Shown here: positions 4,732-58,893 of the stretch, piece after piece
How the letters are laid out: each line of letters begins with the position of its first letter
Numbering within the stretch: the stretch's first letter is position 1
Assembly (NCBI GenBank): GCA_013540595.1
Contig: JABXKE010000002.1
Location: 60,050 to 124,049, forward strand
Origin: Pyrodictium sp.
GTDB lineage: Archaea > Thermoproteota > Thermoprotei_A > Sulfolobales > Pyrodictiaceae
DNA length: 64,000 nt
Direction: 5' to 3'
Made by a program: the position numbers and the translations under genes
The notes under the pieces: model-generated
What the model was told of the DNA's origin: nothing
Database searches by the model: none
The model's input: the letters and a program-made list of their open reading frames with translations, nothing else

Positions 4732-5703
4732 ATGGCGATGGAGTTCCTGGGCTGCGTGGCTAAACGTACACCCCTAGCCGCCCTAATGGGTGTAGAGGCT
4801 AGTGTCGAGTGCACAGTGTCTGGTAGCCCGCCACAAGGCGTAGATGAGGCCGCCACAATACTCAGTAGGCTTGTCAGTTACGTGTCTCGGGGCCTTGGAG
4901 TTGACTTGCGTCCAGCTGGGAAGATTCGCTGGGAGGGACTCGGCAGAGGCAGGTATCGCATCTATACGGTTCAGGTTGGAGGAGATGTTGCTGGCCAGGC
5001 TAGGATAGTTGTGGCTGAATGGCTTGGTAAGCCTCTTGCAGGCATAATAGTGCTCTACGGGCTCGCTGGCAAGCTTGATGCCGAGGAGGAGGTTGAGTGG
5101 GGTAGCCCGCTACGAGGCGTGATACCTGCACCCTGGGGCCCAGTAGAGGATGTTAGTGTGATGCAGAAGGAAGCACCTAAACTGATAAAGTATAAGGCTG
5201 AGCGTAGCGAGCCAAGCCATCCAGGCAACTTGTCTGTCGAGGGCCCCGAAGCAGGCATAACAATTAGCCTGAAAGACCTCAAAGAGAGGGCTGAGTGGAA
5301 GACACTAGACCTCCACTGTGTGACGGGGTGGAGCTATACTGGTAGGAAGTGGCTTGTTGTGCCTCTCAGCGAGCTACTGGACCTGGTTGGTGGCTGTCCT
5401 GGAGGATGGTGGGTCGCTGCTACGTCCTCCACAGGGTACACAACAGTGCTACCATGCCTAGAGGCTGTAAAGTCATACATAGCACTGGGCCTTGAGGGAG
5501 AGAAGCTCAGTCGGGATCACGGGGGCCCAGTAAGGCTTCTCGCACCAACACTCTTCGGGTGGAAGCACGCAAAGTGGCTGGCAAGCCTGAGGGTAGTCAG
5601 CGAGTACCTTGACGGGTTCTGGGAAGCCCACGGCTACCACGAGAGGGGCCTCTGGAAGCTCGATGAGCGCTTCAAGATAAGAAACCCAGAACTACTACGC
5701 TAA
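4732..5703 (+). CDS. Molybdopterin-dependent oxidoreductase domain protein (sulfite-oxidase/YedY-like Mo-binding fold) with an N-terminal extension.
   Basis: The C-terminal half reads LHCVTGWSYTGRKWLVVPLSELL...GEKLSRDHGGPVRLLAPTLFGWKHAKWLASLRVVSEYLDGFWEAHGYHE. This resembles the Oxidored_molyb domain: substrate-binding Cys-containing TGW motif, the GGP...L.P motif, and the K.WL...I tail. Confidence 0.5.
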   Translation: MAMEFLGCVAKRTPLAALMGVEASVECTVSGSPPQGVDEAATILSRLVSYVSRGLGVDLRPAGKIRWEGLGRGRYRIYTVQVGGDVAGQARIVVAEWLGKPLAGIIVLYGLAGKLDAEEEVEWGSPLRGVIPAPWGPVEDVSVMQKEAPKLIKYKAERSEPSHPGNLSVEGPEAGITISLKDLKERAEWKTLDLHCVTGWSYTGRKWLVVPLSELLDLVGGCPGGWWVAATSSTGYTTVLPCLEAVKSYIALGLEGEKLSRDHGGPVRLLAPTLFGWKHAKWLASLRVVSEYLDGFWEAHGYHERGLWKLDERFKIRNPELLR

Positions 5704-13619: not shown

Positions 13620-13793
13620 GGTTAAGGCCTCCTACCTGATGACTTTTTCTAACTCCCACATGCTACCCGCTCGCCCTTCAGAGTATCAGAGTATGGCTAA
13701 AAGTGTAAGGGGAGGAGAATGCTACGGTGGGGATATGGGCAATGTTGGATCCTCTTTATGTGGATGTGAGAAAAAAGGCTTTGTTTACATGGG

Positions 13794-14477
13794 CTAGTCT
13801 CTTGAGGGTATAACGTCTGGGCGGTACCGTGCTAGTACTGCTAGGGCTGCACCAGCAACGAGTACTATTACTGCAAGATAGAGCCCGGTTTCAAGGGTGT
13901 ACCCTAGTTCCTCTTCGTTGTATGGTGTCACTGTCTTCCACGCAGTAATGGTGACAGTTGGCGGTGGAGTAGTGTAGGCTTCCTTGGGCGGTTCTGGCGG
14001 CTTTACAGTGGCTGTAGGCGTCGTCGTTGGCATAGTAGTGGTTGTTGTAGTAGTAGTTGTCTCTTGCTGTTGCTCCTGGACCCCTGTTTGAGTTTGGGTA
14101 CTTGCCTCAAATACTTGCTTGAAGTAGTCGTAGAGTAACTGATACTCCTCATCGGTTATGCCTGCAGCAAACTGCTTCATCTGCTGCATTAACTGATCGT
14201 AGCTTTCCGCCCCACCAAAGGCCTTGTACTCTGACTTTACTGCTTCGTCAAGGCTCGCATACTTTGTTGCCCAAGACCTCACCTTGTCTACTGTGCCCTG
14301 GAAATCTGGTGCAGACGCGCCGTTATGGCAGCTTGCGCATCTAGCCTCAAATACTTGCTTGGCTTTTACCTCGTCAACCTCTGCTAATGCCATTAAGCCA
14401 GTTACGAGTAATAGGCCTACTACTAGTGCAACTATGGTTATCCTAGTGACAACCATCAAGACCCTCACCCCATGCAC
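13794..14477 (-). CDS. Monoheme c-type cytochrome, membrane-anchored. It has an N-terminal TM/signal, a CxxCH motif, a Thr/Pro-rich linker and a C-terminal TM helix.
   Basis: Single heme-c site CASCHNG. A TTTTTTTTTMPTTTPTATVKPPEPP linker is followed by a hydrophobic C-terminal anchor. It is the last gene of the four-gene minus-strand operon. Confidence 0.75.
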   Translation of the reverse strand: MHGVRVLMVVTRITIVALVVGLLLVTGLMALAEVDEVKAKQVFEARCASCHNGASAPDFQGTVDKVRSWATKYASLDEAVKSEYKAFGGAESYDQLMQQMKQFAAGITDEEYQLLYDYFKQVFEASTQTQTGVQEQQQETTTTTTTTTMPTTTPTATVKPPEPPKEAYTTPPPTVTITAWKTVTPYNEEELGYTLETGLYLAVIVLVAGAALAVLARYRPDVIPSRD

Positions 14478-14497
14478 GGATGAGTTATTGTCTCCTA

Positions 14498-15745
14498 TTA
14501 GTGTTCGTGACCATGCTTAAAGTAGTGTGTCATAACTGCCTTGATTGCAGGCTTTGAGAGTAGTAGGTATATGAGTAGGCCTAGTGCGTGTACGCCTACT
14601 GTTATACCGTACTCTATTGGTGTTGGATAGTACGGTCTCACTTCGCCCAGCGTGCTTGGTATGAATGCTGGTATGATTATTGTGAATGTCTTCTCAGCAA
14701 TAACAGCGACTACTATCAGTGCTGATATGGCTACTATTGCCTTCTTATTATTGTGTGTTGATGGTATTAGGGACGCTATTACTGCTGCTGAGCCAAGCCC
14801 CACCCATAGCCACATTAGCACTGCCAGGTATGGCACGTGGAGCCCTAGGAATAGCTCCTTGGCCTGTGCGAGCTTTGACGGCTCTGTTGTGTACCAGAAT
14901 ATCTCTTGGACCTCGCTGAGGGTGAAGTATAGCCCGACGACTGTCGCTATAACTGATATATACAGTGTTTTCCTGTAGACATCAATGCTGACCTTGAAGC
15001 CCTCGATATACCTCTCTGCAAGGTATAGTGCTATGAGTAGTAGTGCAGGCCCACTGGCAAACGCCGTGGCAACGTAGCGTGGTGCCAGCAGCGGGCTATT
15101 CCATATAGGCCTAGCTGTTAGTGCTTGTGAAATGAAAGCTGTTACTGTGTGTATGCCTATAGCAAATGGCGCAGCTATAACCATGAATGGCACTATGAAC
15201 TTTGCTGGTAGTGGCTTATCTTTCCTGTAGTAGTGGACTGTGACGAGCATACCTATAATGTTTATGAGCAAGTATCCTGTTATAACTATGAAGTCCCAGT
15301 CAAGCATTGATCTTAGGTTTGGCAGGCGTGGCATTAGGAACAGTGCCCTTATTGGCCTACCCATGTCAACAACAATTAGCAGCAACACTATTATTAGTGC
15401 AGCTATTGCCTGGACTTCGCCTAGCACAGCAATTTTCTTGAACTCTTTGTCGTTGAATACATAGGCTGCTATAGCGAATACTATTCCTGCAGCAGCCACG
15501 CCAACCCAGAACACGAAGAACGATATGTATATGCCCCACGGCACCGAGTCACTCATAGCAGTAAGTATTAAGCCGCCCTTGTCGCTGCCAAGGAATATTG
15601 GAGCATGCTGCATGAATATCCACAAGTACAAGCCGTACACTGCTAGTAACAGTAGCCCAAATGCCGCCAAGTAGTAGCGCCGACTGCCACGCAGAGCCCA
15701 GCCTATGATGTACTTTATCGTCTCAAACCATTCGGATGCACTCAC
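14498..15745 (-). CDS. NrfD/PsrC/ActC-family polytopic membrane subunit (quinone-interacting) of a complex-iron-sulfur-molybdoenzyme (CISM)-like respiratory module.
   Basis: About 10 predicted TM helices. NrfD-family signatures are present: VPWGIYISFFVFWVGVAAAG and DMGRPIRALF. Confidence 0.7.
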   Translation of the reverse strand: MSASEWFETIKYIIGWALRGSRRYYLAAFGLLLLAVYGLYLWIFMQHAPIFLGSDKGGLILTAMSDSVPWGIYISFFVFWVGVAAAGIVFAIAAYVFNDKEFKKIAVLGEVQAIAALIIVLLLIVVDMGRPIRALFLMPRLPNLRSMLDWDFIVITGYLLINIIGMLVTVHYYRKDKPLPAKFIVPFMVIAAPFAIGIHTVTAFISQALTARPIWNSPLLAPRYVATAFASGPALLLIALYLAERYIEGFKVSIDVYRKTLYISVIATVVGLYFTLSEVQEIFWYTTEPSKLAQAKELFLGLHVPYLAVLMWLWVGLGSAAVIASLIPSTHNNKKAIVAISALIVVAVIAEKTFTIIIPAFIPSTLGEVRPYYPTPIEYGITVGVHALGLLIYLLLSKPAIKAVMTHYFKHGHEH

Positions 15746-15758
15746 TGCTTATCACCTC

Positions 15759-16811
15759 CTACCTCTCCCCCTTACTTGGCGGAGTACGGGCTGGGCCAAA
15801 GAAGTAGAAGAACTTGGGCTTAGCACCAGTTTCAGGCTTCAATACGAAGAGGCCGTACTCCTCTGCTATCCTCCTTATCGGGCTCTCTGGGTCATTCAAG
15901 TCTCCGAATACGCGTGCCCCCACAGGGCAGACCTCCACACACGCTGGCACGCCGCCGTCACGTACGCGCTGGATACACCATGTACACTTCTCTATGACGT
16001 GTGGCTGCCTCGGTATATTACCTAGTATATGCATATTCGGGTTCAGCTCCTGTATCGGCACGACAGGCTTTGCCCAGTTGAAGCGTCTCGCACCGTAGGG
16101 GCATGCCACGGCACAGTACCTACAGCCAATACAGACATCGTAGTCTATGACTACTATGCCGTCAGGCTCCTTGTAAGTGGCCTTGACCGGGCACACCATA
16201 ACGCATGGAGGGTCTTCACAGTGCATGCATGCTATTGGTACGTATACCTTGTCTTTCTTGGGTATCTCCTCGTAATACCAGTTGGAGCCCAAGAGTTCTA
16301 GTGATTCTTCGCGCGATATTTCTAGAACCCTAATCCACTCAATTCCAAGGTTTCTGCCCTGATTATTCTCCATGACGCATGCATAGACGCATCTACGGCA
16401 ACCAATACATTTATTGATGTCCAGCGCCATAGCATACTTTACACCCTTACGTGGCGCAGTAGCTTTAACAGTTATCAACTCAACCTTTTTGCGAGCAAGT
16501 TTGCATTCCTCAGAGTCCTCACCCTTCTCCCTACAGATATTCTCTGCCTCAGCAGAATACCTCTTCTTCAGCTCAGCCTCTTTCTTCTTAGCCCTCTCCT
16601 CCATGGGGGATTCTGCTTCAGCAGTACTCCTCAGTAAGTCTTCAAGACTAACTCTCTTCAAGTTCTTAGCAAGCTTGTCTCTGTCAACTACGAGTACGCC
16701 ACTTATACCGGCTACGCTGGCGCCGACAGCAATGGCTTTGAGGAGGTCTCTTCGTTTCCGATCAACACTACGAGACAAGTTATGCAATGAGCCCTTCGGC
16801 ACGACTATCAA
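15759..16811 (-). CDS. Tat-exported 4Fe-4S ferredoxin-type iron-sulfur subunit (PsrB/NrfC/ActB-like).
   Basis: Twin-arginine signal (RKRRDLLKAIAVGASVAG). Several CxxCxxCxxxCP cluster motifs are present (CIGCRRCVYAC, CMHCEDPPC, CIGCRYCAVACP, CTWC). Confidence 0.8.
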   Translation of the reverse strand: MIVVPKGSLHNLSRSVDRKRRDLLKAIAVGASVAGISGVLVVDRDKLAKNLKRVSLEDLLRSTAEAESPMEERAKKKEAELKKRYSAEAENICREKGEDSEECKLARKKVELITVKATAPRKGVKYAMALDINKCIGCRRCVYACVMENNQGRNLGIEWIRVLEISREESLELLGSNWYYEEIPKKDKVYVPIACMHCEDPPCVMVCPVKATYKEPDGIVVIDYDVCIGCRYCAVACPYGARRFNWAKPVVPIQELNPNMHILGNIPRQPHVIEKCTWCIQRVRDGGVPACVEVCPVGARVFGDLNDPESPIRRIAEEYGLFVLKPETGAKPKFFYFFGPARTPPSKGER

Positions 16812-16822
16812 CCTCGCACCTC

Positions 16823-17551
16823 CTACTTTTCTGCTCTTGTGGCAAAGCGTGTAAGGGCAAAACCTATCGGAATTAAGGCCCCTATAACAGCCAGTACGTT
16901 GGCGATAGCTATGCTGTCCTGGCTTGGGGGCTTAGGCCTCTCAGAGGGTGGAGGCAGCAAGCTAGGAGACGGGTACACTGGGTCATGGGGATCATGGCAT
17001 TCAACGCATGCTCTAGCAGGAACTGTTGTAAGATTCTTGTAGCCGTTCGGGCAGATATGAAAGCTGTATGCTACATCCTTGTAGCCCTTTACTACGAGTA
17101 AATCGCCGTCGGGACAAGTATAGGTCTTATTGCCGTGAACCAAGAGCCTATAGTCCTCATAAGTGCCGGGATGGCAGGTAGCACACAACTTATTGGTCTC
17201 CATGACTAGGCTTCTGTCGTGGTATCCTGGAATATAGACAAACACGTCATTCTTAAGCTCTATCATAAAAGGTGGCTTATGGCAATTCAAACAGTAAAGC
17301 CCTCTATGCGCTCCCCTCGTCAAATCTATGTTGTGGAATGTGCTCGCCTTCTTGTCCCCTGTAAGTTGCATTGTTGCGTGACAATTCGTGCAAGGGTATA
17401 TTGTCTTATAGTACTCCTCGGTTTTCTGAGCCTCAGCATACGCCACATGGATTGCCGCGACAGTCAGTACCAATAATATCATGATGAAGCAGACTGTGCA
17501 CACCGTTCTCGTCAAGGCGTGCACCTCTCCCATCATCCTGCTGTATTCCAT
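16823..17551 (-). CDS. Tetraheme c-type cytochrome (NrfB/ActA-like) with an N-terminal membrane anchor or signal and a C-terminal TM helix.
   Basis: Four CxxCH motifs: CTNCH, CLNCH, CATCH, CVECH. It is the first gene of the minus-strand operon. Confidence 0.8.
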   Translation of the reverse strand: MEYSRMMGEVHALTRTVCTVCFIMILLVLTVAAIHVAYAEAQKTEEYYKTIYPCTNCHATMQLTGDKKASTFHNIDLTRGAHRGLYCLNCHKPPFMIELKNDVFVYIPGYHDRSLVMETNKLCATCHPGTYEDYRLLVHGNKTYTCPDGDLLVVKGYKDVAYSFHICPNGYKNLTTVPARACVECHDPHDPVYPSPSLLPPPSERPKPPSQDSIAIANVLAVIGALIPIGFALTRFATRAEK

Positions 17552-17574
17552 TATTTGACATATAAACTCGCTAT

Positions 17575-17595
17575 TTTACAGTATATAAGTGATCT
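17575..17595 (-). promoter_or_regulatory. Candidate TATA box/BRE for the cytochrome operon (leaderless or short-leader transcript).
   Basis: On the minus strand, TTATATA lies 31-37 nt upstream of the ATG at 17551 (plus-strand coordinates 17583-17589), in an AT-rich intergenic stretch. Confidence 0.25.
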
Positions 17596-17751
17596 ATGCC
17601 AATCCACATTAAAGTTAAAGTAGAGGGGTTTAAGTTGTTAACCCGTAAAGTTTTGGATAAATTAACGTACACTAAATAAAACCGTGCATGTCAACGTTAA
17701 TGGGGATCAAGAGTGGCCATTGCAGGACTCCCATAAGCTTGTTGACTGTGC

Positions 17752-18375
17752 CTAGGGATTGCCCGACGAGAGGGTGCGTTCTATAAGGCTTACAGCACAT
17801 TTCCCAGGGTCGACCTCAACGCCGTCATATACTTTCCCGACTGCATGCCGCAGACAAGCCCAATCGATAAGATCCTCTAGGCCAGCATCTTGTGCTATTC
17901 TACGCGCCTTCTCGAGAATAGCTAGTGCTGAACCCTTAAAGCCCTCCTGGGCCTTAGCAAGAGCCCCTGCAATTATGGCTAACAGTCTACCCTCAACACC
18001 GGCTCTGTGCCACAGTTCTTCCCCGACACTATGTGCTTCCCAGAATCGTTGACCACGCATCATCGCCAGATATCTTCGCGCGAGAACCCACAAAGGTTCA
18101 GATTTATGGTCGTGAGACAGTGATGCGTAATAAGCTTCAAGCACTTTGTAACCTCTACTCTCAAGTGATTCACGCGCATGCTCAAGGCTAGATCCATATA
18201 CAATTAGTTCAATCCACTTAGGAGACACATGAACAGTCAAAGGCTTACCTATGACCCCCCTCAACACTTTTCTGATACTACTGGCATCGCGGGGCTTTAC
18301 ACGCCAGCTATTGGGTATGCGTACAATGACTATCGATGCATTAGACTCATGCAAAATAACACACCAATCAGGCAT
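17752..18375 (-). CDS. DUF309-domain protein.
   Basis: The FWEAHSVGEELWHRA motif matches the DUF309 signature (F-E-A-H-E-x-W-E/H). Confidence 0.45.
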   Translation of the reverse strand: MPDWCVILHESNASIVIVRIPNSWRVKPRDASSIRKVLRGVIGKPLTVHVSPKWIELIVYGSSLEHARESLESRGYKVLEAYYASLSHDHKSEPLWVLARRYLAMMRGQRFWEAHSVGEELWHRAGVEGRLLAIIAGALAKAQEGFKGSALAILEKARRIAQDAGLEDLIDWACLRHAVGKVYDGVEVDPGKCAVSLIERTLSSGNP

Positions 18376-18400
18376 TCTCTGAGAGGCGGTTGGGGATGGG

Positions 18401-19156
18401 TTATGGCCTGCTTATCTTGTCTACTATGGCCGCCACATCCTTGTATGCCTCCGTCATGCGGAGCTTATCAGGGGATCCCACGGCCTCTTCAAGCCTATCA
18501 TCGAGTCTTATAGCTCCAGCAACAACATACTCCTTGACACGTAGTCTTGGACTGAAAGAGTCAGCCATGTTAACTACTATTATTGGCTTTTTATGCAACA
18601 ACTCCTCGACCAAGGGGAGAGACCTTTCTAGGCTCTTTATAGAGAGTCGTGACGGAGTAGTGACTGCTATCACTCTAGTCTTGTCGGCCGCAACACTTCT
18701 CAAAAGCTTGAATAGTGTTAGCTGTGTGTCTCCGAGCCCTGGGGGAGTGTCAATCACCAGTGTATTGACTCCTTCCCAGTTGCCTATCGTGAATAGTTCA
18801 AGTAGCGCATCAACATCCTCTTCTCCCCTTAGAGGCAGCGAGGTTTCTCCAGCAAAGAATACTGGTGATAGGATATAGAGATTATCAATAACCTTGTATG
18901 GTTTTACGCCCATGACTTCTTCAAGCTCTACCCGTGCAGGAACACCTAAGATCACGTGGAGTGTGGGGCTAGCAAAATCTACATCAAGTAGCCCAGTGCT
19001 AACACCCTTTTCAGCTAGCGCCAAGCCAAGTAACGCAGTTAGAGTTGATTTTCCTACGCCGCCTTTAGTACTAACAACAATTATTACCTCTTCTACTTTC
19101 GAGAGCTGATACTCTACACCGGAGAGCCTGGGATCAGACTCTGCAACATTAACCAT
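18401..19156 (-). CDS. Mrp/MinD/NBP35-family P-loop ATPase, probably the ATPase-type hydrogenase maturation factor HypB found in Thermococcales and other archaea.
   Basis: Deviant Walker A STKGGVGKST. Length is 251 aa. It is co-oriented with, and overlaps by 8 nt, the hypA-like gene immediately upstream. Confidence 0.7.
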   Translation of the reverse strand: MVNVAESDPRLSGVEYQLSKVEEVIIVVSTKGGVGKSTLTALLGLALAEKGVSTGLLDVDFASPTLHVILGVPARVELEEVMGVKPYKVIDNLYILSPVFFAGETSLPLRGEEDVDALLELFTIGNWEGVNTLVIDTPPGLGDTQLTLFKLLRSVAADKTRVIAVTTPSRLSIKSLERSLPLVEELLHKKPIIVVNMADSFSPRLRVKEYVVAGAIRLDDRLEEAVGSPDKLRMTEAYKDVAAIVDKISRP

Positions 19157-19535
19157 AGACTCTCACCCTGATTTCTCTGCCCCTCACCACCTTCAAGTCC
19201 CTTGAGCCGCACTTGGGGCACCTCACATAGGCATGTAGGGCTTCAGGGAGAAAGTGTATGGCTTCTCTCGCGTCTGGACTGAGCTCGCTCATGTCCAATC
19301 TCCACTCATGGCTACATTGCTCGCAGCGTAGAACTGGCGGCTCAGTAGTAATCCTATACTCCACGCCCGGCATCACTTCTCTAAGGTTCATGCGCAGGTA
19401 CTCGCTCAAGACATCAATGTCAATATTCTGCAACTCACCAACAACAACTTCAACTAGCTTAGGCTTCGCAGCAAGAGACTTGGCGAGTTTCTCTGCTTCA
19501 CGCAAAACTGCAAGGGCTATAGCGGCTTCATGCAA
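19149..19535 (-). CDS. hypA: Hydrogenase nickel-insertion protein HypA.
   Basis: N-terminal MHE motif (MHEAAIALAV). Zn-finger cysteines are CEQC...CPKC. Length is 128 aa. Confidence 0.75.
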   Translation of the reverse strand: MHEAAIALAVLREAEKLAKSLAAKPKLVEVVVGELQNIDIDVLSEYLRMNLREVMPGVEYRITTEPPVLRCEQCSHEWRLDMSELSPDAREAIHFLPEALHAYVRCPKCGSRDLKVVRGREIRVRVYG

Positions 19536-19586: not shown

Positions 19587-20531
19587 TTACCCTTTCATGT
19601 ATACTAGTATCCTGTCAGCCGCTATGCCTAACCCTATTACTAGGCCTAAGACGAGGTTAGTGTTGAAGGCCTTTGGGATTGCGCCTAGCCCGCTTCTTGC
19701 AAGCAAGTAGTGCTGGTAGCCTAGTAATATGCCAGAAACGATGACGGTTAATGCAGCAATGCCATCAAGGCCGTACACCCTTATAGACGCTGTCAACAAC
19801 AGGAAAACAGCTAGGTGCATGAGGGCTGATAAGCGGAGAGCATTCCTTACGCCTAGCCTAGCAGGGATACTGCCAAGGCCCATCTTCTTGTCGAACTCGT
19901 AGTCCATTATGGCGTAGTATGTATCGAAGCCTGCAACCCACAGGGTTACAGCTACTACGAGTAGCCAGGGCACAGAGGAGAGTACTTCAGCTATGTTGGC
20001 TGCATTCATCCCTGCAGAGGCTACTGCACCCCCGAAGACCACGAAGCCTAGAACCGCTCCGAGGTGGAGGTGGGGTATCCAGTGCACTCTCTTAGCGTAA
20101 GGGTAGCTCATAGCGATAACCCATAACACTGGGCTTAGAGCCAGTGTGTAGATGTTTAGCATTGCAGCAGAAGCATAGTACAAGAGGGATCCGAGAACTA
20201 CTAGTAGCCATGCATCCCTGAGGCTCACAGCTCCCGTCACGAGGGGCCTCATCCTTGTACGGGGGTTTTCGCGGTCTATATCTAGGTCAGCGATATTATT
20301 AAAGGCCATGGCAGCTGTGCGTAGCCCGAGTACTGCAAGGCCAATGAGCACAGCGACCCTCAAGTCTACACAGCTACTACACGCTACGAGTGCTCCTGCA
20401 TAGGCGAATGGGAGGCTGAAGAGGGTATGCTCTATCCGTACAAGCCTCGCCAAAGCAGCAAGCCTACTCCTACCCCTAAGCCTGCCAGGATCCCAGGAAG
20501 CCACCACACCTACCCACCCAGCAAAGCACAC
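19587..20531 (-). CDS. ubiA: UbiA-family aromatic prenyltransferase (4-hydroxybenzoate polyprenyltransferase-like).
   Basis: NNIADLDIDRENPRTRMRPLVTG corresponds to the NDxxDxxxD prenyl-diphosphate motif. About 8 TM helices. Confidence 0.8.
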   Translation of the reverse strand: MCFAGWVGVVASWDPGRLRGRSRLAALARLVRIEHTLFSLPFAYAGALVACSSCVDLRVAVLIGLAVLGLRTAAMAFNNIADLDIDRENPRTRMRPLVTGAVSLRDAWLLVVLGSLLYYASAAMLNIYTLALSPVLWVIAMSYPYAKRVHWIPHLHLGAVLGFVVFGGAVASAGMNAANIAEVLSSVPWLLVVAVTLWVAGFDTYYAIMDYEFDKKMGLGSIPARLGVRNALRLSALMHLAVFLLLTASIRVYGLDGIAALTVIVSGILLGYQHYLLARSGLGAIPKAFNTNLVLGLVIGLGIAADRILVYMKG

Positions 20532-20535
20532 TAAT

Positions 20536-21993
20536 CTACTCTAAGCCCAGACTAGCCCATATCTCATCGACTCTCCTAGCTGTCTCCGGGTCTGGTTCCA
20601 CCTCAGCAGGCCACTCTTTACCGCCATACTCTTCTGGGAGCTTGCGCGTAGCATCTATTCCAAGCTTACTACCATAGCCTGGTGTTGGGGTTGCTGGGTC
20701 AAGCTGGTCTGTATGTGTGCCAGGAACCACTACGACGTCACGCTGGGGGTCTACGTGGGCTGAGACTGCCCAGAGCACCTGGTTTATGTCGTGTACGTCC
20801 ACGTCGTGGTCGACTACTATGATTATCTTGGTTAGAGCCATCTGGCCAAGACCCCACAAAGCCATCATAACCTTCTTAGCGTGGCCTGGGTAGCGTTTAC
20901 GGATAGATACTATGGCTATGCCTTGGAATACACCGTACTCTGGTAAGTTAATGTCCACAATTTCTGGTAGCAAGGTGCGCAGCACAGGGAGGAACACGCG
21001 TTCGACCGCCTTCCCCAGGGCAGCATCCTCCATTGGCGGCTTACCAACAACAGTTACAGGAAAAACTGGGTTACTCTTCTTCCACAGTCTCTCAACAGTT
21101 ATCACTGGGAACTCCTCGTGTGGAGTGTCATAGTAGCCCCAGTGATCCCCAAAGGGCCCCTCTGGAGCCGTCTTGTCAGGATCAACCCAACCCTCAATAA
21201 CTACTTCAGCGCTAGCAGGCACAAGTACGCCATTGGGTAACCTATAGACCTCTACGCCTCGGCCAGCCATTATACCAGCAAACAACAGTTTATCCATGGG
21301 GTACGGTACTGGCATCACACCAGTAAGCATTGTAGCTGGATCAGAGCCCACTACGACTGCTATGGGTAGCTTTTCACCACGCTCAGACGCCAGGCTATAG
21401 GCTAAGCGGCCACGCTTATGCATCTGCCAGTGGACAACGAGTTCTCTAGGGCCACGAATCATTACGCGATAAACACCAATATTTGTAACGCCAGTAACAG
21501 GATCTACAGTGTAGACCTGCCCAAAGGTTATATATCTGCCCCCATCACGTGGCCACTGCATGATGGCCGGCAATGTCTCAACATTAACCTTGTTGCCCTC
21601 CACAACCTCATCACCAAATGATGGTCTACGGACACTCCTAGGAGCATAACGGCCAAGATCCAGTACGTCACGTAGACTGCGGAGCTTCTCAACAATACTT
21701 AGCGGAGGTGAGCGCCAAGCCAGGGAGACTAGTCTCTCACCAACATCCTCGAGCCTCTCAACGCCAAGAGCGAGCTTTATCCTCTCAAGAGAGCCGAACA
21801 AGTTGCCAGCAATTCTCCAGCCAGGGAACCCTTTGACCTCCTCAAAGAGGACTGCTGGGCCACGACGCTGCATAACCCTTCTCAAGACTTCAGGGATTTC
21901 AAGCACGGGGCTTAAGGGAACACGTACTCTCCGCAGCTCACCCTTTTCCTCATAGACCCTAAGGAGTTCACGTAGGTCACGTACTGCAGGCAA
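20536..21993 (-). CDS. ubiD: UbiD-family (prenylated-FMN dependent) decarboxylase.
   Basis: It is 485 aa with UbiD-family features: N-terminal LRELLRVYEEKGEL, central metal/prFMN-binding region. It lies 4 nt upstream of ubiA in the same orientation. Confidence 0.8.
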   Translation of the reverse strand: MPAVRDLRELLRVYEEKGELRRVRVPLSPVLEIPEVLRRVMQRRGPAVLFEEVKGFPGWRIAGNLFGSLERIKLALGVERLEDVGERLVSLAWRSPPLSIVEKLRSLRDVLDLGRYAPRSVRRPSFGDEVVEGNKVNVETLPAIMQWPRDGGRYITFGQVYTVDPVTGVTNIGVYRVMIRGPRELVVHWQMHKRGRLAYSLASERGEKLPIAVVVGSDPATMLTGVMPVPYPMDKLLFAGIMAGRGVEVYRLPNGVLVPASAEVVIEGWVDPDKTAPEGPFGDHWGYYDTPHEEFPVITVERLWKKSNPVFPVTVVGKPPMEDAALGKAVERVFLPVLRTLLPEIVDINLPEYGVFQGIAIVSIRKRYPGHAKKVMMALWGLGQMALTKIIIVVDHDVDVHDINQVLWAVSAHVDPQRDVVVVPGTHTDQLDPATPTPGYGSKLGIDATRKLPEEYGGKEWPAEVEPDPETARRVDEIWASLGLE

Positions 21994-26861: not shown

Positions 26862-28025
26862 TTAGAAGAACTTGTCAAACCATAGTTTTTCAAAAGTCGC
26901 TTTTACTACTCTGAAGAGCCTCATGCCGCCAATCATGTAGCAGTTGGGGTACTCTGCTCTCCCAAGGAGTTTGTCTGTGAAGTCACAGAATACTGCTGCG
27001 CCAAGATACCCCATGTCCATTACACATACGCCAGTCATGTTGTAGTGTTCCCCCATGAACGTGCCTTTTATCTCGTCTATTATCTGGCTAGCCACATACT
27101 CTCCCTGGAAGTGGGCAAATACGCCAGCCATGCCGAGGCCTATTGTTGGCCCTATAATGTCACCTACACCAAACACATTCTTGTACTTGGGGTGACGTAG
27201 TGTTGGTAGTTCTACGAGCATGTAGTTATAGGCCTTAGGGTTTGCAAGCTCAGACTGGGTCACCGCAGCGGGGGGCTCGTGTGGTGGCACGACGATTCCT
27301 AGGTCGAAATCTATTGATGAGCCATCCTCGAAGACTACTCTGCCCTTCTCTACCCTGGCGACATTGGGTTTACCGCCAACAAATTTGATGTTGAACATGT
27401 CTAGGAACCGCTTAAACATACTCACCATGAATGGGCCAAAAGGCTCCATAGGGTCTTTCCACTGGTGGAACACTGTTATGTCTACATTGGTTATGCCACG
27501 CTGCTCCATCAAGTATTTTATAAGGAATGCTGTCTCGAAAGGTGCTGGTGCACACTTGTATATGGGGTCATGTGTCCCTATGACTACTCTGCCTCCACGA
27601 AACTCTGCTAGCATCTTACGGCACTTCAGGGCTCCCTCAGGTGTCCAGGGCGCACAGGTATACTCGTTTCCTGGCAAGAGGTCTGGTCGTGGTGTCGAGC
27701 CAAGGGCTACGACGAGGTAGTCATAGGTGTATTCTCCACCCTTTGTCACTACTTTGTTGTTTGCTGGGTCTATCTTTGTTACCTCGTCAACAACAACTTT
27801 TATGCCTCGCTTCTCGAGCAGCTTTAGTGGCCTCGTAATATCTTCTACCTCCCTTATACCAGTCATAACCCAGAGGAGGCTAGGCCAGAAAAGGTGGCGG
27901 CCATTCTTGTCTATCAACACTATCTCTGCTTCATCACTCGACAAGTGCTCTGAGAGCTTCCTAGCCACTACGACTCCTCCAGTACCACCACCAAGGATTA
28001 GGATGCGCTTAGGCAAAATATGCAC
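26862..28025 (-). CDS. FAD-dependent pyridine-nucleotide-disulfide oxidoreductase of the sulfide:quinone oxidoreductase (SQR)/type-II NADH dehydrogenase family.
   Basis: N-terminal Rossmann motif ILILGGGTGGVVVA, a second dinucleotide-binding region, 387 aa. Confidence 0.8.
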   Translation of the reverse strand: MHILPKRILILGGGTGGVVVARKLSEHLSSDEAEIVLIDKNGRHLFWPSLLWVMTGIREVEDITRPLKLLEKRGIKVVVDEVTKIDPANNKVVTKGGEYTYDYLVVALGSTPRPDLLPGNEYTCAPWTPEGALKCRKMLAEFRGGRVVIGTHDPIYKCAPAPFETAFLIKYLMEQRGITNVDITVFHQWKDPMEPFGPFMVSMFKRFLDMFNIKFVGGKPNVARVEKGRVVFEDGSSIDFDLGIVVPPHEPPAAVTQSELANPKAYNYMLVELPTLRHPKYKNVFGVGDIIGPTIGLGMAGVFAHFQGEYVASQIIDEIKGTFMGEHYNMTGVCVMDMGYLGAAVFCDFTDKLLGRAEYPNCYMIGGMRLFRVVKATFEKLWFDKFF

Positions 28026-31438: not shown

Positions 31439-32542
31439 GTGATGTATAGGTGTAGATCCATGTTTGCAAAACACCCTCTTGAGCACGTGAAAGAGAAGCT
31501 CTCTGAGAGCGACCTCCTTGATGCTCTTAGATTAGCCATTATAGCTGAGCTTGATGCTGTGAGTTTCTATCTACAGATAGCTGCTAGGAGTCCACGTGAG
31601 GATGTTAGGAAGGTTTTTGAGGATGTTGCTAATGAGGAGAAGACTCATGTTGGCGAGTTCTTGGAGTTGTTGAAGCGCCTTGATCCACGACAAGCCGAGG
31701 AGCTTGCCAAGGGGCGTATGGAGGTCTTAGAGATTATTGGTGGTAAGAACGGTGGAGGAGGCGCTGTAGCTACCACAGGTAGTAGCGGAGAGAATAGTGG
31801 CAGTAGCGTGAGTATTGAGAGTGCTGTGGCTAGGTTGTTCCGTGAAACAGCTAATGCTAGCAGGGTTCTCCGCAGGTATTTGCCAGTGACTATTGTTGGT
31901 CCAGGCGTTGACTATGTGGCTGCGACGAGTGTAGGCTATGGCGAGGAGGGGGTTACTGTTGTCTCAGAGAGTATTGTGCCGTTGAGAGATGTCGTTGTGG
32001 AGTTTACTGTGCCAGAGAAGGTTGTTGAGAGGAGTTTGAGGTTTAATGGTTCTCTTGAACCAATAGTTGACTATGCTGCACGCAAGTTTGTAGTTGCCGA
32101 GGAGAAGATAGTTGTTAGCCAGCTAGTGGAGGCAAAGGGCGTTCTTGAAAAGAATATTGGTGCGTGGGACAAGCCTGGCGAGGCTGTAGACGATGTAGCT
32201 AAGGCTGTTTCTATGCTTGAAGCAGAAGGGTTCAATGGTCCATTCACTCTACTCGTGCCAGTACAGAGGTATGCACGGCTACTAGCTGTCTACGAGAAGA
32301 CTGGCGTAATGGAGCTTTCTAGGCTTGAGAAGCTAGTCAAAGTGGTTCGCACACCTCTGCTCCATGAGAACACCGTAGTCTTACTAGCCGCGCAGAGCAC
32401 TGTGGCAGATATAGTCGTGAGTGTTGACACACGCGTAGACTACCTTGGCCTCGAGACAAGTGGCCACAGGTTCAAGGCATGGGAGACTATTGCGTTGAGG
32501 ATAAGTAATCCACGAGGCATAGTACTAATGAGACAAGGCTAA
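31439..32542 (+). CDS. Encapsulin nanocompartment shell protein (family 1, HK97 fold) with an N-terminally fused ferritin-like cargo domain, of the Pyrococcus furiosus PfV type.
   Basis: The N-terminal LRLAIIAELDAVSFYLQIA...EEKTHVGEF is almost identical in pattern to the ferritin-like diiron motif of the PfV fusion. A Gly/Ser-rich linker follows. The C-terminal PFTLLVPVQRYARLL...HRFKAWETIALRISNPRGIVLM matches the encapsulin A-domain and C-terminal strand. Confidence 0.85.
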   Translation: MMYRCRSMFAKHPLEHVKEKLSESDLLDALRLAIIAELDAVSFYLQIAARSPREDVRKVFEDVANEEKTHVGEFLELLKRLDPRQAEELAKGRMEVLEIIGGKNGGGGAVATTGSSGENSGSSVSIESAVARLFRETANASRVLRRYLPVTIVGPGVDYVAATSVGYGEEGVTVVSESIVPLRDVVVEFTVPEKVVERSLRFNGSLEPIVDYAARKFVVAEEKIVVSQLVEAKGVLEKNIGAWDKPGEAVDDVAKAVSMLEAEGFNGPFTLLVPVQRYARLLAVYEKTGVMELSRLEKLVKVVRTPLLHENTVVLLAAQSTVADIVVSVDTRVDYLGLETSGHRFKAWETIALRISNPRGIVLMRQG

Positions 32543-57769: not shown

Positions 57770-57911
57770 AACACTACCACCGAGCCGTCAGACTCGTGGA
57801 GGCTTCTACTCTCACGCCTAATAGTCTAAACCACAGTTGGCCTCGTACCATGCATAAATGTGGTAGCCCCTACTCATTTCAAACTTGCCCCCCTACCGAG
57901 ACTATCAGTGC

Positions 57912-58820
57912 TTACTTAGCCCCATAGTATAGTGGCTTGATTACCCTTTCTTCAATGTCTACCAGCAGTACTGCCGCTCTTCTACCATGGTACAAGCTTG
58001 AGAATACTGATATGACACAATACTCTAACTCATCGAGCCCCAAAGTAACGCTTACACCATCACTATGGCCTCCATCGCTATGCCATACTAGTACACCGTC
58101 AACAGTCTCGTGAGCCCTAACAAGTACTTTAAGCCTATTCTCTTCGAGAAACTTTCTCCAGGCGCTACGGCCGTAGAGGTATATACCTAGGCCACGTGGG
58201 CTAGGTAGGAACCACTCGATGCCGCCACGCGGGTCGTTCCATAGGGCCTGCATTACTAGGCTGGACTCACTCTCTACTAGTGATGGCGAGCCCTCCTCTC
58301 TCAAGACGCGGGCTTCTCGGGCTATCTCTTCGACACGCACAGGGTCTTCTTCACTATTTGAGCATAGTCTGCAAGGCACACCCCCATGGACGAAGAACAC
58401 CTCGTTGGCCCTAGCAGCTATGGGCAGTGCAGAGTATAGCTTAGCTATGTCATTAAGGTAATCTGGCCCCCTCTTGTTTAGGGCTTCACTATAGAAGCCA
58501 TAGTAGTAGTTCATCTCTAGGTCTTCGTGGTTGCCGCGAAGCATGTAAATTGCTGGGCTGCCATCCTCTAGCAGCCTAGACAGTACCAGTTCAAGGTTCT
58601 CTACGCCCCTGGGCCCGCGATCCACGTAGTCACCGAGGAACAGCACAGCTTCAACGCCCAAGTGCTCAGCAAGCTCTAAAGCCCACTCTGTGACTTCAGG
58701 GTATCCATGTGTATCTCCTACAACAAGAATCCTCGCCGCCTCAAGCTCAAGCACTGGCTCTTGGGCCTTAAGCTTCTCAATAGCTCTACTAAGCAATGCA
58801 TGGTAATCACTACTACTCAT
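57912..58820 (-). CDS. PPP-family Ser/Thr protein phosphatase (PP2A-like metallophosphoesterase).
   Basis: GDxHG (ILVVGDTHGY), GDxVDRG (LFLGDYVDRGP) and GNHE (LRGNHE) motifs. Confidence 0.85.
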   Translation of the reverse strand: MSSSDYHALLSRAIEKLKAQEPVLELEAARILVVGDTHGYPEVTEWALELAEHLGVEAVLFLGDYVDRGPRGVENLELVLSRLLEDGSPAIYMLRGNHEDLEMNYYYGFYSEALNKRGPDYLNDIAKLYSALPIAARANEVFFVHGGVPCRLCSNSEEDPVRVEEIAREARVLREEGSPSLVESESSLVMQALWNDPRGGIEWFLPSPRGLGIYLYGRSAWRKFLEENRLKVLVRAHETVDGVLVWHSDGGHSDGVSVTLGLDELEYCVISVFSSLYHGRRAAVLLVDIEERVIKPLYYGAK

Positions 58821-58893
58821 GGCTTGTTATCCCCCTCTACAACATTGCGAGAGGGCGCCAGGGCTACCTAGCCGTTAGAGGTAGCCGTTTTCT

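What the first reader, a model, noticed from the sequence alone, without database searches (positions are those of the whole stretch)
13794..17600. Four-gene quinone-interacting respiratory module built on c-type cytochromes rather than a molybdopterin subunit
The operon encodes a tetraheme cytochrome c (four CxxCH), a Tat-exported tetra-cluster 4Fe-4S protein, an NrfD/PsrC membrane subunit (AAAG and GRP signatures) and a membrane-anchored monoheme cytochrome c with a Thr9/Pro-rich stalk. These genes run consecutively on the minus strand. No PsrA-like or Mo catalytic subunit is encoded in the operon (13794-17551) or elsewhere in the window. The architecture resembles a minimal alternative complex III (ActA/B/C/E) or NrfBCD. 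c-type cytochromes are rare in Crenarchaeota. They are known in Pyrodictium, Pyrolobus, Ignicoccus and Pyrobaculum. The electron donor or acceptor is not deducible from the sequence.
Basis: partly seen in the sequence, partly recalled or inferred. Interest (0 to 1): 0.65.

Follow-up and report, generated by a model that had tools for sequence, protein, structure and literature searches.

The report
Cytochrome c–FeS–NrfD respiratory gene cluster
Four adjacent genes in a Pyrodictiaceae-type archaeal genome encode a membrane complex (two c-type cytochromes, an exported iron-sulfur protein and a haem-free NrfD membrane subunit) that most likely passes electrons between membrane quinones and cytochromes outside the cell; the cluster is real, but it was already noted in Ignicoccus, Hyperthermus, Pyrolobus and Pyrodictium and its function is still untested.

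Summary
Four minus-strand genes at 13794-17551 encode a tetrahaem cytochrome c, a Tat-exported protein with four 4Fe-4S clusters, a 10-helix NrfD-family subunit and a C-terminally anchored monohaem cytochrome c. All haem and cluster ligands are invariant or nearly so in orthologues. No DMSO-reductase-type molybdenum subunit lies in the window or next to the cluster in the 16 related loci whose flanks were examined.

The cluster is not new. It is the orthologue of Igni_0528-0530, Hbut_1391-1395, Pyrfu_1102-1105 and Pyrde_0485-0488. The Ignicoccus cluster was described in 2008 and its tetrahaem protein was purified in 2014.

The FeS and NrfD subunits score best against DsrO and DsrP but fall below the family cut-offs, and in a small tree the NrfD lies outside the DsrP clade. 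Homologous cytochrome-FeS-NrfD triads occur in Bacteria, one of them next to napDAB. The monohaem protein belongs to the same family as the cytochrome c subunit of the Aeropyrum pernix bc complex.

Best reading: a quinol:cytochrome c oxidoreductase, alike in architecture to Geobacter Cbc4 and in role to alternative complex III. It is not a member of ACIII, Nrf, Psr or Dsr. The direction of electron flow and the partners are inferred. I class it as a new member of a known but uncharacterised kind, of moderate interest.

The parts
16823..17551 (-). Tetrahaem cytochrome c with an N-terminal signal/anchor helix (about residues 16-34) and a C-terminal TM helix (about 214-232). The probable start is the ATG at 17536.
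   Evidence: Four CxxCH motifs at residues 54, 87, 123 and 182. These motifs, His73/82/139/165/189 and Cys146/167 are invariant in 19 orthologues. It is 43% identical (4e-50) to Igni_0530 and 59% identical to Pyrfu_1102 and Hbut_1391. Pfam matches Cytochrome_C7 at 26.7 bits. Helices.
15759..16811 (-). Tat-exported iron-sulfur subunit with four [4Fe-4S] cluster motifs and an N-terminal charged extension of about 80 aa
   Evidence: RRDLL at residue 20. The 16 cluster Cys are conserved in 20-21 of 21 homologues. The best NCBIfam match is DsrO at 183.9 bits against a cut-off of 200. The best solved relatives are PsrB 2vpw_B (3e-39), ArrB, and the ActB C-terminal domain. The Shine-Dalgarno motif GGAGGTG lies upstream.
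14498..15745 (-). NrfD-family integral membrane subunit with 10 predicted TM helices and no Cys, hence no redox cofactor. It is the presumed quinone site and proton path.
   Evidence: Pfam NrfD 1.2e-38. NCBIfam DsrP 243.6 bits against a cut-off of 350, and QrcD 44 bits. Ten hydrophobic segments. The DsrP1-type signature residues, including Lys352, are conserved (list in PMC8076601). It is 71-82% identical to the Pyrodictiaceae orthologues.
13794..14477 (-). Monohaem class I cytochrome c with a signal peptide, a Thr9/Pro-rich linker and a C-terminal TM anchor. The probable start is the ATG at 14456.
   Evidence: CASCH at residue 47 and the T9 run at 140. Pfam Cytochrom_C 25.5 bits against a cut-off of 21.3. 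It is 54-63% identical to Pyrfu_1105, 39% to Hbut_1395, and 29% (3e-9) to APE_1719.1, the cytochrome c of the A. pernix bc complex. Met100 aligns with a Met in APE_1719.1. A GGTGAG motif lies before the ATG at 14456.
17552..17600 (-). AT-rich promoter-like region with two TATA-like octamers: TTTATATG at 17559-17566 and CTTATATA at 17582-17589
   Evidence: Read directly from the sequence. The proximal box is centred about 26 nt upstream of the ATG at 17536, which would fit a leaderless first gene. This is inference by eye and was not tested statistically.
13771..13776 (-). Oligo-T tract (T6) 18-23 nt after the stop codon of the last gene; a candidate archaeal terminator
   Evidence: Read directly from the sequence. 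Inference only.

Best explanation
The four genes form one operon. It encodes a membrane-bound complex whose redox cofactors all sit on the outer face of the cytoplasmic membrane.

The haem-free 10-helix NrfD subunit binds menaquinol near the outer face. Electrons then pass through the four [4Fe-4S] clusters of the Tat-exported subunit, into the membrane-anchored tetrahaem cytochrome (probably all bis-His), and on to the membrane-anchored monohaem His/Met cytochrome c. From there they go to extracytoplasmic acceptors. In relatives these include an HAO-like octahaem cytochrome.

In short, it is a quinol:cytochrome c oxidoreductase. It does the job of a bc1 complex or an alternative complex III with a Cbc4/DsrOP-like set of parts. 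It may be coupled to proton translocation through the NrfD subunit.

Shown here: gene order, cofactor motifs and their conservation, export signals, family relationships, orthology to clusters described earlier, and the absence of a Mo-bisPGD subunit.

Inferred: complex formation, quinone use, the direction of electron flow, the partners and proton coupling.
For: Operon: gaps of 11-20 nt, strong Shine-Dalgarno motifs before the internal genes, a TATA-like box upstream and an oligo-T tract downstream.

Conserved order: the gene order is kept in about 20 related loci.

Cofactor ligands: they are invariant or nearly so.

Topology: a Tat motif, signal/anchor helices and C-terminal anchors.

NrfD subunit:
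- It keeps residues that match, at a constant offset, the quinone-site and channel residues listed for DsrP1 in PMC8076601: Tyr73, Ser146, Asp151, Tyr95, Tyr158, His199, Thr202, Arg212, Glu278 and Lys352.

Quinone supply: menaquinone-type UbiA and UbiD genes lie directly upstream, and an SQR-like gene is nearby.

Bacterial homologues:
- Bacterial homologues of the tetrahaem protein always sit in cytochrome-FeS-NrfD triads.
- One triad is divergent from napD-napA-napB, where no NapC or NapGH is called within the 5-kb flanks. A quinol dehydrogenase would be expected there.
- Another triad lies beside a Rieske/cytochrome b complex.

Monohaem cytochrome: it is homologous to the cytochrome c subunit of the A. 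pernix bc complex. Its Pyrolobus and Hyperthermus homologues were noted to lack a Rieske/cyt b partner and to belong to 'an unidentified electron transport complex' (PMC4429474).

Named analogue: Geobacter Cbc4 (tetrahaem CbcS, 4x[4Fe-4S] CbcT, membrane CbcU) is regarded as a quinol:cytochrome c oxidoreductase (bioRxiv 10.1101/2025.04.14.648717).

Against: No biochemical activity is known for any orthologue.

The direction of electron flow is not given by the sequence. The homologous DsrJOP and Qrc modules are thought to reduce quinone, or their direction is undefined.

Ignicoccus-type clusters lack the monohaem gene. Ignicoccus grows only on H2 and sulfur, where a high-potential cytochrome c outlet makes little sense.

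The mapping of quinone-site residues rests on an assumed numbering offset to D. vulgaris DsrP, whose sequence I did not have.

The window contains no terminal reductase, no octahaem cytochrome and no ccm genes.

The AlphaFold model of the tetrahaem protein was poor (pLDDT 64.6), so its haem-core type is unverified.
Confidence: 0.55

Rival explanations
1. The same complex runs in the opposite direction. It is a cytochrome c:menaquinone oxidoreductase of the Qrc or DsrJOP type. It collects electrons from extracytoplasmic donors, such as a hydrogenase via soluble or anchored cytochromes c, and reduces the quinone pool electrogenically.
For: The NrfD and FeS subunits score best against DsrP and DsrO, and QrcD and QrcC are also hit. 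QrcABCD is a cytochrome c3:menaquinone oxidoreductase (PMC8076601; PMC13059093, abstract). In I. hospitalis an octahaem cytochrome was reduced by the native hydrogenase (PMC4429474). HypA and an Mrp-type ATPase lie just upstream. Tetrahaem bis-His cytochromes such as CbcS have low potentials (-139 mV).
Against: Class I cytochromes c with probable His/Met ligation are generally high-potential (my background knowledge, not measured here), and this one belongs to the family of a bc-complex cytochrome c; that fits an outlet better than an inlet. One bacterial triad sits beside napDAB, a quinol-consuming system. There are no hydrogenase structural genes in the window.
Confidence: 0.2
2. It is the electron-transfer and anchor part of a sulfur or polysulfide reductase, or of an H2:sulfur oxidoreductase supercomplex. 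The catalytic subunit would be encoded elsewhere. This is the view given earlier for Igni_0528-0530 ('bacterial type polysulfide reductase').
For: PMC2614490 and PMC4429474 propose this for Ignicoccus. The FeS subunit is most similar among solved structures to PsrB. The Pyrodictium abyssi H2:sulfur oxidoreductase complex is reported to contain haem c (from my own knowledge; not checked here).
Against: No PsrA/SreA-type gene lies in the window or beside the cluster in the 16 related loci whose flanks were examined. Ignicoccus has a separate complete SreABC cluster (PMC2614490). The NrfD has 10 helices, is DsrP-like, and gives no PsrC match. The cluster is conserved in P. delaneyi, an iron and nitrate reducer (PMC8105010, PMC5556600); Pyrolobus fumarii also has it, and I recall from outside these tools that it does not respire sulfur.
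Confidence: 0.12
3. It is a quinone-independent complex. The NrfD subunit serves only as a membrane anchor or proton channel for a periplasmic FeS/cytochrome wire, as proposed for the quinone-free organohalide respiration complex of Dehalococcoides.
For: Such a role for NrfD-like subunits is discussed in the literature (PMC10772276, listed). The Pyrodictium sulfur-reducing complex has been described as not depending on quinones (my recollection; not verified here).
Against: The quinone-site residues of the DsrP1 type are conserved. Menaquinone-type biosynthesis genes and an SQR-like gene are neighbours.
Confidence: 0.05

Closest known systems
Igni_0528-0530 (Ignicoccus hospitalis), Hbut_1391-1395, Pyrfu_1102-1105 and Pyrde_0485-0488: the same cluster in cultured Desulfurococcales
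   Same: These are orthologous genes in the same order. The tetrahaem protein is 43-59% identical, the NrfD 49-82% and the monohaem protein 39-63%. Igni_0530 has been purified as a membrane-bound multihaem cytochrome c (PMC4429474).
   Different: The Ignicoccus versions lack the monohaem gene and carry an insertion of about 55 aa in NrfD (468-476 aa). Pyrolobus has a duplicated (dihaem) fourth subunit. Several relatives have ccm genes and an HAO-like octahaem cytochrome next door, which this window lacks.
Geobacter sulfurreducens Cbc4 (CbcS-CbcT-CbcU, GSU0068-0070)
   Same: It has the same three-part architecture: a membrane-anchored tetrahaem cytochrome c with four bis-His haems, a 4x[4Fe-4S] protein and a cofactor-free integral membrane subunit. 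It is proposed to be a menaquinol:cytochrome c oxidoreductase.
   Different: Sequence homology to GSU0068-0070 was not tested, because I had no sequences. CbcS is shorter (about 160 aa) and lacks the C-terminal anchor. Cbc4 has no monohaem fourth subunit.
DsrJOP module of the DsrMKJOP complex
   Same: DsrO and DsrP are the best-scoring curated families. The NrfD is 37.5% identical to a DsrP from a genuine dsrC-MKJOP operon. It has 10 helices and keeps the DsrP1 signature residues, including the Lys in place of the usual gating Arg.
   Different: Scores are below the family cut-offs. In an NJ tree the archaeal NrfD clade lies outside the DsrP clade, each with 100% bootstrap. There is no DsrM, DsrK or DsrC nearby. 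The cytochrome is a tetrahaem unrelated to the trihaem DsrJ. The FeS subunit has an extra N-terminal extension.
Alternative complex III (ActABCDEF)
   Same: The proposed role is the same: quinol to FeS to multihaem to monohaem cytochrome c, all on the P side, with an NrfD-type cofactor-free membrane subunit. ActC is the closest solved relative of the NrfD subunit (6f0k_C, 2.9e-7), and the ActB C-terminal domain matches the FeS subunit. DsrP and ActC/F fall in the same major branch of the family (PMC8076601).
   Different: There is no molybdopterin-like ActB1 domain, only one NrfD subunit instead of two, no ActD, and four haems rather than five. The monohaem subunit is anchored by a C-terminal helix and belongs to the APE_1719.1 family.
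NrfBCD of E. coli-type nitrite reductase
   Same: A multihaem cytochrome plus a four-cluster FeS protein plus an NrfD membrane subunit acts as a quinol dehydrogenase for a periplasmic multihaem reductase. The tetrahaem protein has a weak match to NrfB (25 bits), and earlier threading matched NrfA minus one haem (PMC4429474 supplement).
   Different: All Nrf-specific models score far below their cut-offs or are not hit at all. There is no nrfA in the window.
Cytochrome c subunit (APE_1719.1) of the Aeropyrum pernix cytochrome bc complex
   Same: The fourth subunit here is in the same sequence family: 29% identity, 3e-9, with the same signal, haem domain, Thr-rich linker and C-terminal anchor layout.
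   Different: Here it is encoded with an NrfD/FeS/tetrahaem module instead of a Rieske/cytochrome b pair.

Membership tests
Desulfurococcales cytochrome c4-FeS-NrfD(-cytochrome c) cluster (Igni_0528-0530 type) | Orthologous tetrahaem cytochrome with four conserved CxxCH motifs and a C-terminal anchor | tested here: met
   43% identity (4e-50) to Igni_0530 and 59% to Pyrfu_1102 and Hbut_1391. The motifs are invariant in 19 sequences.
Desulfurococcales cytochrome c4-FeS-NrfD(-cytochrome c) cluster (Igni_0528-0530 type) | Conserved gene order cytochrome c4, FeS, NrfD, with the monohaem gene fourth in Pyrodictiaceae | tested here: met
   tblastn on 28 loci. The order is kept wherever the contig is long enough. 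The monohaem gene is present in about 20 loci.
Alternative complex III | ActB with an N-terminal molybdopterin-like domain fused to the FeS domain | tested here: not met
   The FeS protein is 350 aa and matches Fer4 domains only. ActB chains match it only over their C-terminal 200-250 residues.
Alternative complex III | Two NrfD-like subunits (ActC and ActF), plus ActD | tested here: not met
   There is a single NrfD gene in the operon and in the window.
Alternative complex III | Pentahaem ActA and monohaem ActE | tested here: inconclusive
   A tetrahaem and a monohaem cytochrome are present. The tetrahaem query returned no ActA chain; the only ActA hit (6btm_A, E = 0.54, not significant) came from the monohaem query. 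ActE was not compared.
NrfABCD / NrfBCD | NrfB, NrfC and NrfD equivalog models reach their cut-offs, and nrfA is present | tested here: not met
   NrfB scores 25.4 against a cut-off of 184. NrfC scores 130.1 against 377.6. No NrfD-specific model is hit. There is no NrfA.
DsrMKJOP | DsrO and DsrP equivalog scores above the cut-offs | tested here: not met
   DsrO scores 183.9 against 200, and DsrP 243.6 against 350. The NrfD lies outside the DsrP clade in the NJ tree.
DsrMKJOP | Co-encoded DsrM (dihaem cytochrome b), DsrK (CCG/FeS), trihaem DsrJ and DsrC | tested here: not met
   None is present in the window or in the flanks of the related loci. A genuine dsr operon (L030) shows what the pattern looks like.
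Polysulfide/sulfur reductase (PsrABC/SreABC) and other Mo-bisPGD (CISM) enzymes | Catalytic Mo-bisPGD subunit encoded with the FeS and NrfD subunits | tested here: not met
   No PF00384-type protein was found among the ORFs of the window scanned with Pfam or NCBIfam, which include every ORF of 300 aa or more and most of 120 aa or more, or beside the cluster in relatives.
Polysulfide/sulfur reductase (PsrABC/SreABC) and other Mo-bisPGD (CISM) enzymes | PsrC-type membrane subunit with eight helices | tested here: not met
   Ten hydrophobic segments. PsrC (2vpw_C) was not recovered at E <= 0.01.
Geobacter Cbc4 (CbcSTU) | Anchored tetrahaem cytochrome, 4x[4Fe-4S] protein and cofactor-free integral membrane subunit | tested here: met
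   The architecture matches the description.
Geobacter Cbc4 (CbcSTU) | Sequence homology to GSU0068-0070 | not tested
Bacterial triads with a homologous tetrahaem protein do exist.
NrfD/PsrC superfamily (Pfam PF03916) | Pfam gathering score reached, and no redox-cofactor ligands | tested here: met
   134 bits against a cut-off of 25.8. The protein has no Cys.

The most novel reading that the evidence does not exclude
In Pyrodictiaceae this cluster is the organism's complex III. It would be a molybdopterin-free, single-NrfD, proton-translocating menaquinol:cytochrome c oxidoreductase working at about 100 degrees C. In it, the cytochrome c subunit that partners a Rieske/cytochrome b core in Aeropyrum has been re-wired to a DsrOP-like module. 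That would make it a minimal archaeal counterpart of alternative complex III, and possibly close to the ancestral form from which the ACIII, Dsr and Qrc modules were elaborated.
Probability: 0.3. Interest if true: 0.6.

Novelty: new member of a known kind. Interest (0 to 1): 0.35.

Why it matters
Respiratory chains of hyperthermophilic Crenarchaeota that use c-type cytochromes are poorly understood. This cluster is the only conserved candidate seen here for linking the quinone pool to the extracytoplasmic cytochromes of Pyrodictiaceae and Ignicoccus, which are organisms that respire sulfur, Fe(III), nitrate or traces of oxygen.

If it does work as a quinol:cytochrome c oxidoreductase, it would explain three things. 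It would explain why Pyrolobus and Hyperthermus carry a bc-type cytochrome c without a Rieske/cytochrome b core. It would give a function to the purified but unassigned Igni_0530. It would also define a minimal NrfD-based complex III analogue shared with Nitrospirota and other Bacteria.

The window itself adds one more orthologue, and it adds the observation that the cluster can stand apart from ccm genes and octahaem cytochrome genes. It does not add a new kind of system.

Tried and rejected
- AlphaFold2 model of the tetrahaem cytochrome, from a 26-sequence alignment: mean pLDDT 64.6 and pTM 0.44. Foldseek against the PDB gave no match below E = 4. No fold assignment is possible, so the NrfH/CymA-like or NrfB-like haem core remains untested.
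- phmmer of the tetrahaem protein against PDB sequences: only chance hits to haemagglutinins.
- Exact look-up of the window's NrfD on public contigs: not on record. The source organism could not be named beyond 'Pyrodictiaceae relative with a 1,373,995-bp genome'.
- Search for ccm genes, an octahaem cytochrome, the Cys-rich Fer4 protein or the Trx-CcdA fusion in the window by tblastn: none found, only generic ABC ATPases.
- ACIII, NrfBCD, PsrABC and DsrMKJOP membership: each was rejected on defining features (see the membership tests).
- DUF309, Mrp and HypA, which lie upstream, as part of the module: rejected. The arrangement is shared only with the 95%-identical relative L002 and not with the other loci.
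- The sulfite-oxidase-family protein at 4732-5703 as a hidden catalytic subunit: considered unlikely. It has no signal peptide, lies on the opposite strand, and is separated from the cluster by unrelated hydrolase genes.
- Literature search for Pyrolobus, menaquinone and Ignicoccus together: no paper found. The quinone content of these organisms could therefore not be documented here.

Full report
**Observation**

The region 13794-17551 holds four consecutive minus-strand ORFs of 242, 350, 415 and 227 aa, separated by 11, 13 and 20 nt.

- The first protein has exactly four CxxCH motifs, at residues 54, 87, 123 and 182.
- The last protein has one (CASCH at 47), a run of nine threonines at 140-148 followed by a Pro/Thr-rich stretch, and a C-terminal hydrophobic helix.
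- The second protein has the twin-arginine motif RRDLL and sixteen cysteines in four ferredoxin-type groups.
- The third protein matches Pfam NrfD at 1.2e-38, has no cysteine and shows ten hydrophobic segments.
- CxxCH occurs in no other ORF of 80 aa or more in any frame of the 64-kb window.

The internal genes are preceded by GGAGGTG-type Shine-Dalgarno motifs. The first gene is preceded by an AT-rich stretch with TATA-like octamers. The last gene is followed by a T6 tract. This fits a single operon, although no transcript data exist. The most likely start codons are the ATG at 17536 and the ATG at 14456.

**Where the window comes from**

The proteins occur on an NCBI record of 1,373,995 bp. 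The NrfD subunit is 82% identical to that of Pyrofollis japonicus, 71-76% to Pyrodictium, Hyperthermus and Pyrolobus, and 49% to Ignicoccus. The organism is thus a relative of the Pyrodictiaceae. I could not name it.

**Conservation**

A scan of one genome per species returned 28 loci, nearly all from Pyrodictiaceae, Thermodiscus, Ignicoccus and related metagenome-assembled genomes.

- tblastn shows the order tetrahaem, FeS, NrfD, monohaem wherever the contig allows. Three Ignicoccus-type loci lack the fourth gene and have a longer NrfD.
- In 19 orthologues, all four CxxCH motifs, five further histidines (73, 82, 139, 165, 189) and a cysteine pair (146/167) are invariant. Five spare histidines for four haems fit bis-His ligation.
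- The sixteen cluster cysteines are conserved in 20-21 of 21 FeS homologues, and most keep the twin-arginine motif.

**Molybdenum subunit**

No DMSO-reductase-type molybdopterin protein is encoded in the window. Every ORF of 300 aa or more, and most of those of 120 aa or more, were scanned. None lies beside the cluster in the relatives.

One correction is needed. A 323-aa protein at 4732-5703 carries a sulfite-oxidase-family Mo domain. It lacks a signal peptide and is separated from the cluster by unrelated genes. I treat it as unconnected.

**Family placement**

- Against NCBIfam, the FeS subunit scores best with DsrO (183.9 bits, cut-off 200) and the membrane subunit with DsrP (243.6, cut-off 350). 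QrcD is a distant second, and no NrfD-, PsrC- or HybB-specific model is hit.
- Among solved structures, the membrane subunit is weakly closest to ActC of alternative complex III (6f0k_C, 2.9e-7). PsrC is not recovered. The FeS subunit matches PsrB, ArrB and the C-terminal domain of ActB.
- This agrees with the published family tree, in which DsrP and ActC/F share one major branch (PMC8076601).
- I aligned the subunit with a DsrP taken from a genuine dsrC-MKJOP operon (L030; 37.5% identity). The invariant residues coincide, at a constant offset of about two, with the quinone-site and proton-channel residues that the review lists for D. vulgaris DsrP1. These include a lysine (Lys352 here) where most NrfD-type proteins have the gating arginine. 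The offset is assumed, because I lacked the D. vulgaris sequence.
- A small neighbour-joining tree places the archaeal proteins in their own clade with 100% bootstrap. That clade lies outside the DsrP clade (100%) and outside the bacterial triad proteins.

**Bacterial relatives**

A profile of the tetrahaem protein finds only about 220 clusters at E <= 1e-3, and six at E <= 1e-30, among 1.84 billion representatives. The family is small.

Every bacterial member whose context I fetched sits in a cytochrome, FeS (310-320 aa), NrfD (403-436 aa) triad:

- in a Nitrospiraceae genome beside a Rieske/cytochrome b complex;
- in a Deferrimicrobiaceae MAG;
- in an unnamed contig;
- divergent from napD-napA-napB in another MAG, with no NapC or NapGH called within the 5-kb flanks shown.

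The last context is the best indication that the triad acts as a quinol dehydrogenase for extracytoplasmic reductases.

**Literature**

The cluster is not new.

- Podar et al. 2008 described Igni528-530 as a 'bacterial type polysulfide reductase' cluster with an NrfD, a periplasmic FeS protein and a membrane protein with four haem sites, also present in Hyperthermus (PMC2614490).
- Igni_0530 was purified from membranes as a multihaem cytochrome and tentatively assigned to the sulfur reductase (PMC4429474).
- That paper's supplement groups Igni_0530, Pyrfu_1102 and Hbut_1391 in one cluster. It groups Hbut_1395 and Pyrfu_1105 with APE_1719.1, the cytochrome c of the Aeropyrum bc complex. [quoted passage not shown]
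- My comparisons show that the window's first and fourth proteins belong to exactly these two groups. The locus-tag numbers show that both groups are encoded in one cluster.
[quoted passage not shown] - The closest named architectural analogue is Geobacter Cbc4 (CbcS tetrahaem, CbcT with 4x[4Fe-4S], CbcU membrane), regarded as a quinol:cytochrome c oxidoreductase.

**Mechanism**

Every cofactor-bearing subunit is exported or anchored with its domain outside. The NrfD subunit has no cofactor but keeps the residues assigned to a P-side quinone site.

The simplest wire runs from quinol in NrfD, through four [4Fe-4S] clusters and four bis-His haems, to the His/Met monohaem cytochrome and then to outside acceptors.

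Several observations favour the quinol-oxidising direction. The fourth subunit is a class I cytochrome c related to a bc-complex subunit. One bacterial triad neighbours nap genes. Menaquinone-type UbiA and UbiD genes and an SQR-like gene lie near the cluster. I give this reading 0.55.

The reverse direction (Qrc-like, 0.2) cannot be excluded. Neither can a role as the electron-transfer part of a sulfur reductase (0.12) or a quinone-independent role (0.05).

**Comparison and verdict**

The proposed labels are analogies, not memberships. 'Minimal ACIII' fails on the ActB1 domain, the second NrfD subunit, ActD and the haem count. 'NrfBCD' fails on family scores. DsrMKJOP fails on DsrM, DsrK and DsrJ and on tree placement. 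Psr fails on the catalytic subunit and the helix number.

The cluster is a further member of an already noted but functionally uncharacterised family of cytochrome c4-FeS-NrfD complexes. I rate the novelty as 'new member of a known kind' and the interest as 0.35. The most novel reading still open is that it is the Pyrodictiaceae's minimal, molybdopterin-free complex III analogue. I give that a probability of about 0.3 and an interest of 0.6 if true.

Noticed in passing
window 4732-5703 (+): A 323-aa protein whose C-terminal half is a sulfite-oxidase-family molybdenum domain (PF00174, 77 bits), with weak MsrP and SoxC matches. No signal peptide is evident. It contradicts the finding's statement that no Mo subunit lies elsewhere in the window, although it is not PsrA-like.
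   Followed up: partly
window 19587-21993 (-): A UbiA-family prenyltransferase (PRK13106, above its cut-off) and a UbiD-family decarboxylase (menaquinone-biosynthesis model mena_SCO4490, 487 bits against a cut-off of 496). They lie directly upstream of the HypA/Mrp/DUF309 genes and of the cluster, on the same strand. These are probably late menaquinone biosynthesis genes.
   Followed up: partly
window 26862-28025 (-): A flavoprotein whose best match is type III sulfide:quinone reductase (191 bits, well below the cut-off of 525). It is another hint of a quinone pool.
   Followed up: no
window 17752-19535 (-): A DUF309 protein, an Mrp/NUBPL-type P-loop ATPase and HypA (hydrogenase nickel chaperone) sit between the quinone genes and the cluster. 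The same arrangement is seen only in the 95%-identical relative L002.
   Followed up: partly
window 31439-32542 (+): A rubrerythrin/EncFtn-like domain fused to an encapsulin shell protein (Linocin_M18).
   Followed up: no
window 55919-60072 (-): A protein kinase (616 aa), a calcineurin-like phosphatase and a VWA protein with an ArnB C-terminal domain lie in a row, resembling the archaellum regulatory network genes.
   Followed up: no
L005, L015, L018, L022, L023 (flanks of the orthologous cluster): Cytochrome c maturation genes lie next to the cluster in relatives but are absent from the window: ccmA and ccmC by family match; ccmF by a weak Pfam CcmF_C match only; ccmB and ccmE assumed from size and position, with no family match. 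A thioredoxin domain is also found there, fused to a multi-helix membrane domain that I take to be CcdA-like by inspection only, and carrying a CxxCH motif.
   Followed up: partly
L016 321-2804, L019 12258-14420, L023 9962-12112: An HAO/hydrazine-dehydrogenase-like octahaem cytochrome c with a long C-terminal coiled coil and a TM anchor lies beside the cluster. The same holds for Hbut_1389 and Pyrde_0496 according to the literature. It is a likely redox partner.
   Followed up: partly
L005 6090-7643 and homologues in L006, L007, L012, L015, L018, L019, L023: A Cys-rich protein of about 460-540 aa (20-24 Cys), with two ferredoxin-type motifs and no other recognisable domain, flanks the cluster in 8 of 15 loci. 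Its function is unknown. It is not present in the window.
   Followed up: partly
L034 1213-7849: In a bacterial MAG the homologous cytochrome-FeS-NrfD triad is divergent from napD-napA-napB, with no NapC or NapGH in view. This suggests the triad serves as the quinol dehydrogenase of a periplasmic nitrate reductase.
   Followed up: no
L031 471-7233: A Nitrospiraceae genome has the triad immediately after a Rieske/cytochrome b pair and a pentahaem cytochrome. A second FeS-NrfD pair lies upstream.
   Followed up: no
L011 9376-10383 region; Pyrfu_1105: In some relatives the fourth subunit is internally duplicated, giving two haem domains and a dihaem protein.
   Followed up: no
L021, L025, L026 (Ignicoccus-type loci): In these loci the NrfD subunit is 468-476 aa, with an insertion relative to the Pyrodictiaceae proteins, and no monohaem cytochrome gene follows it.
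   Followed up: no
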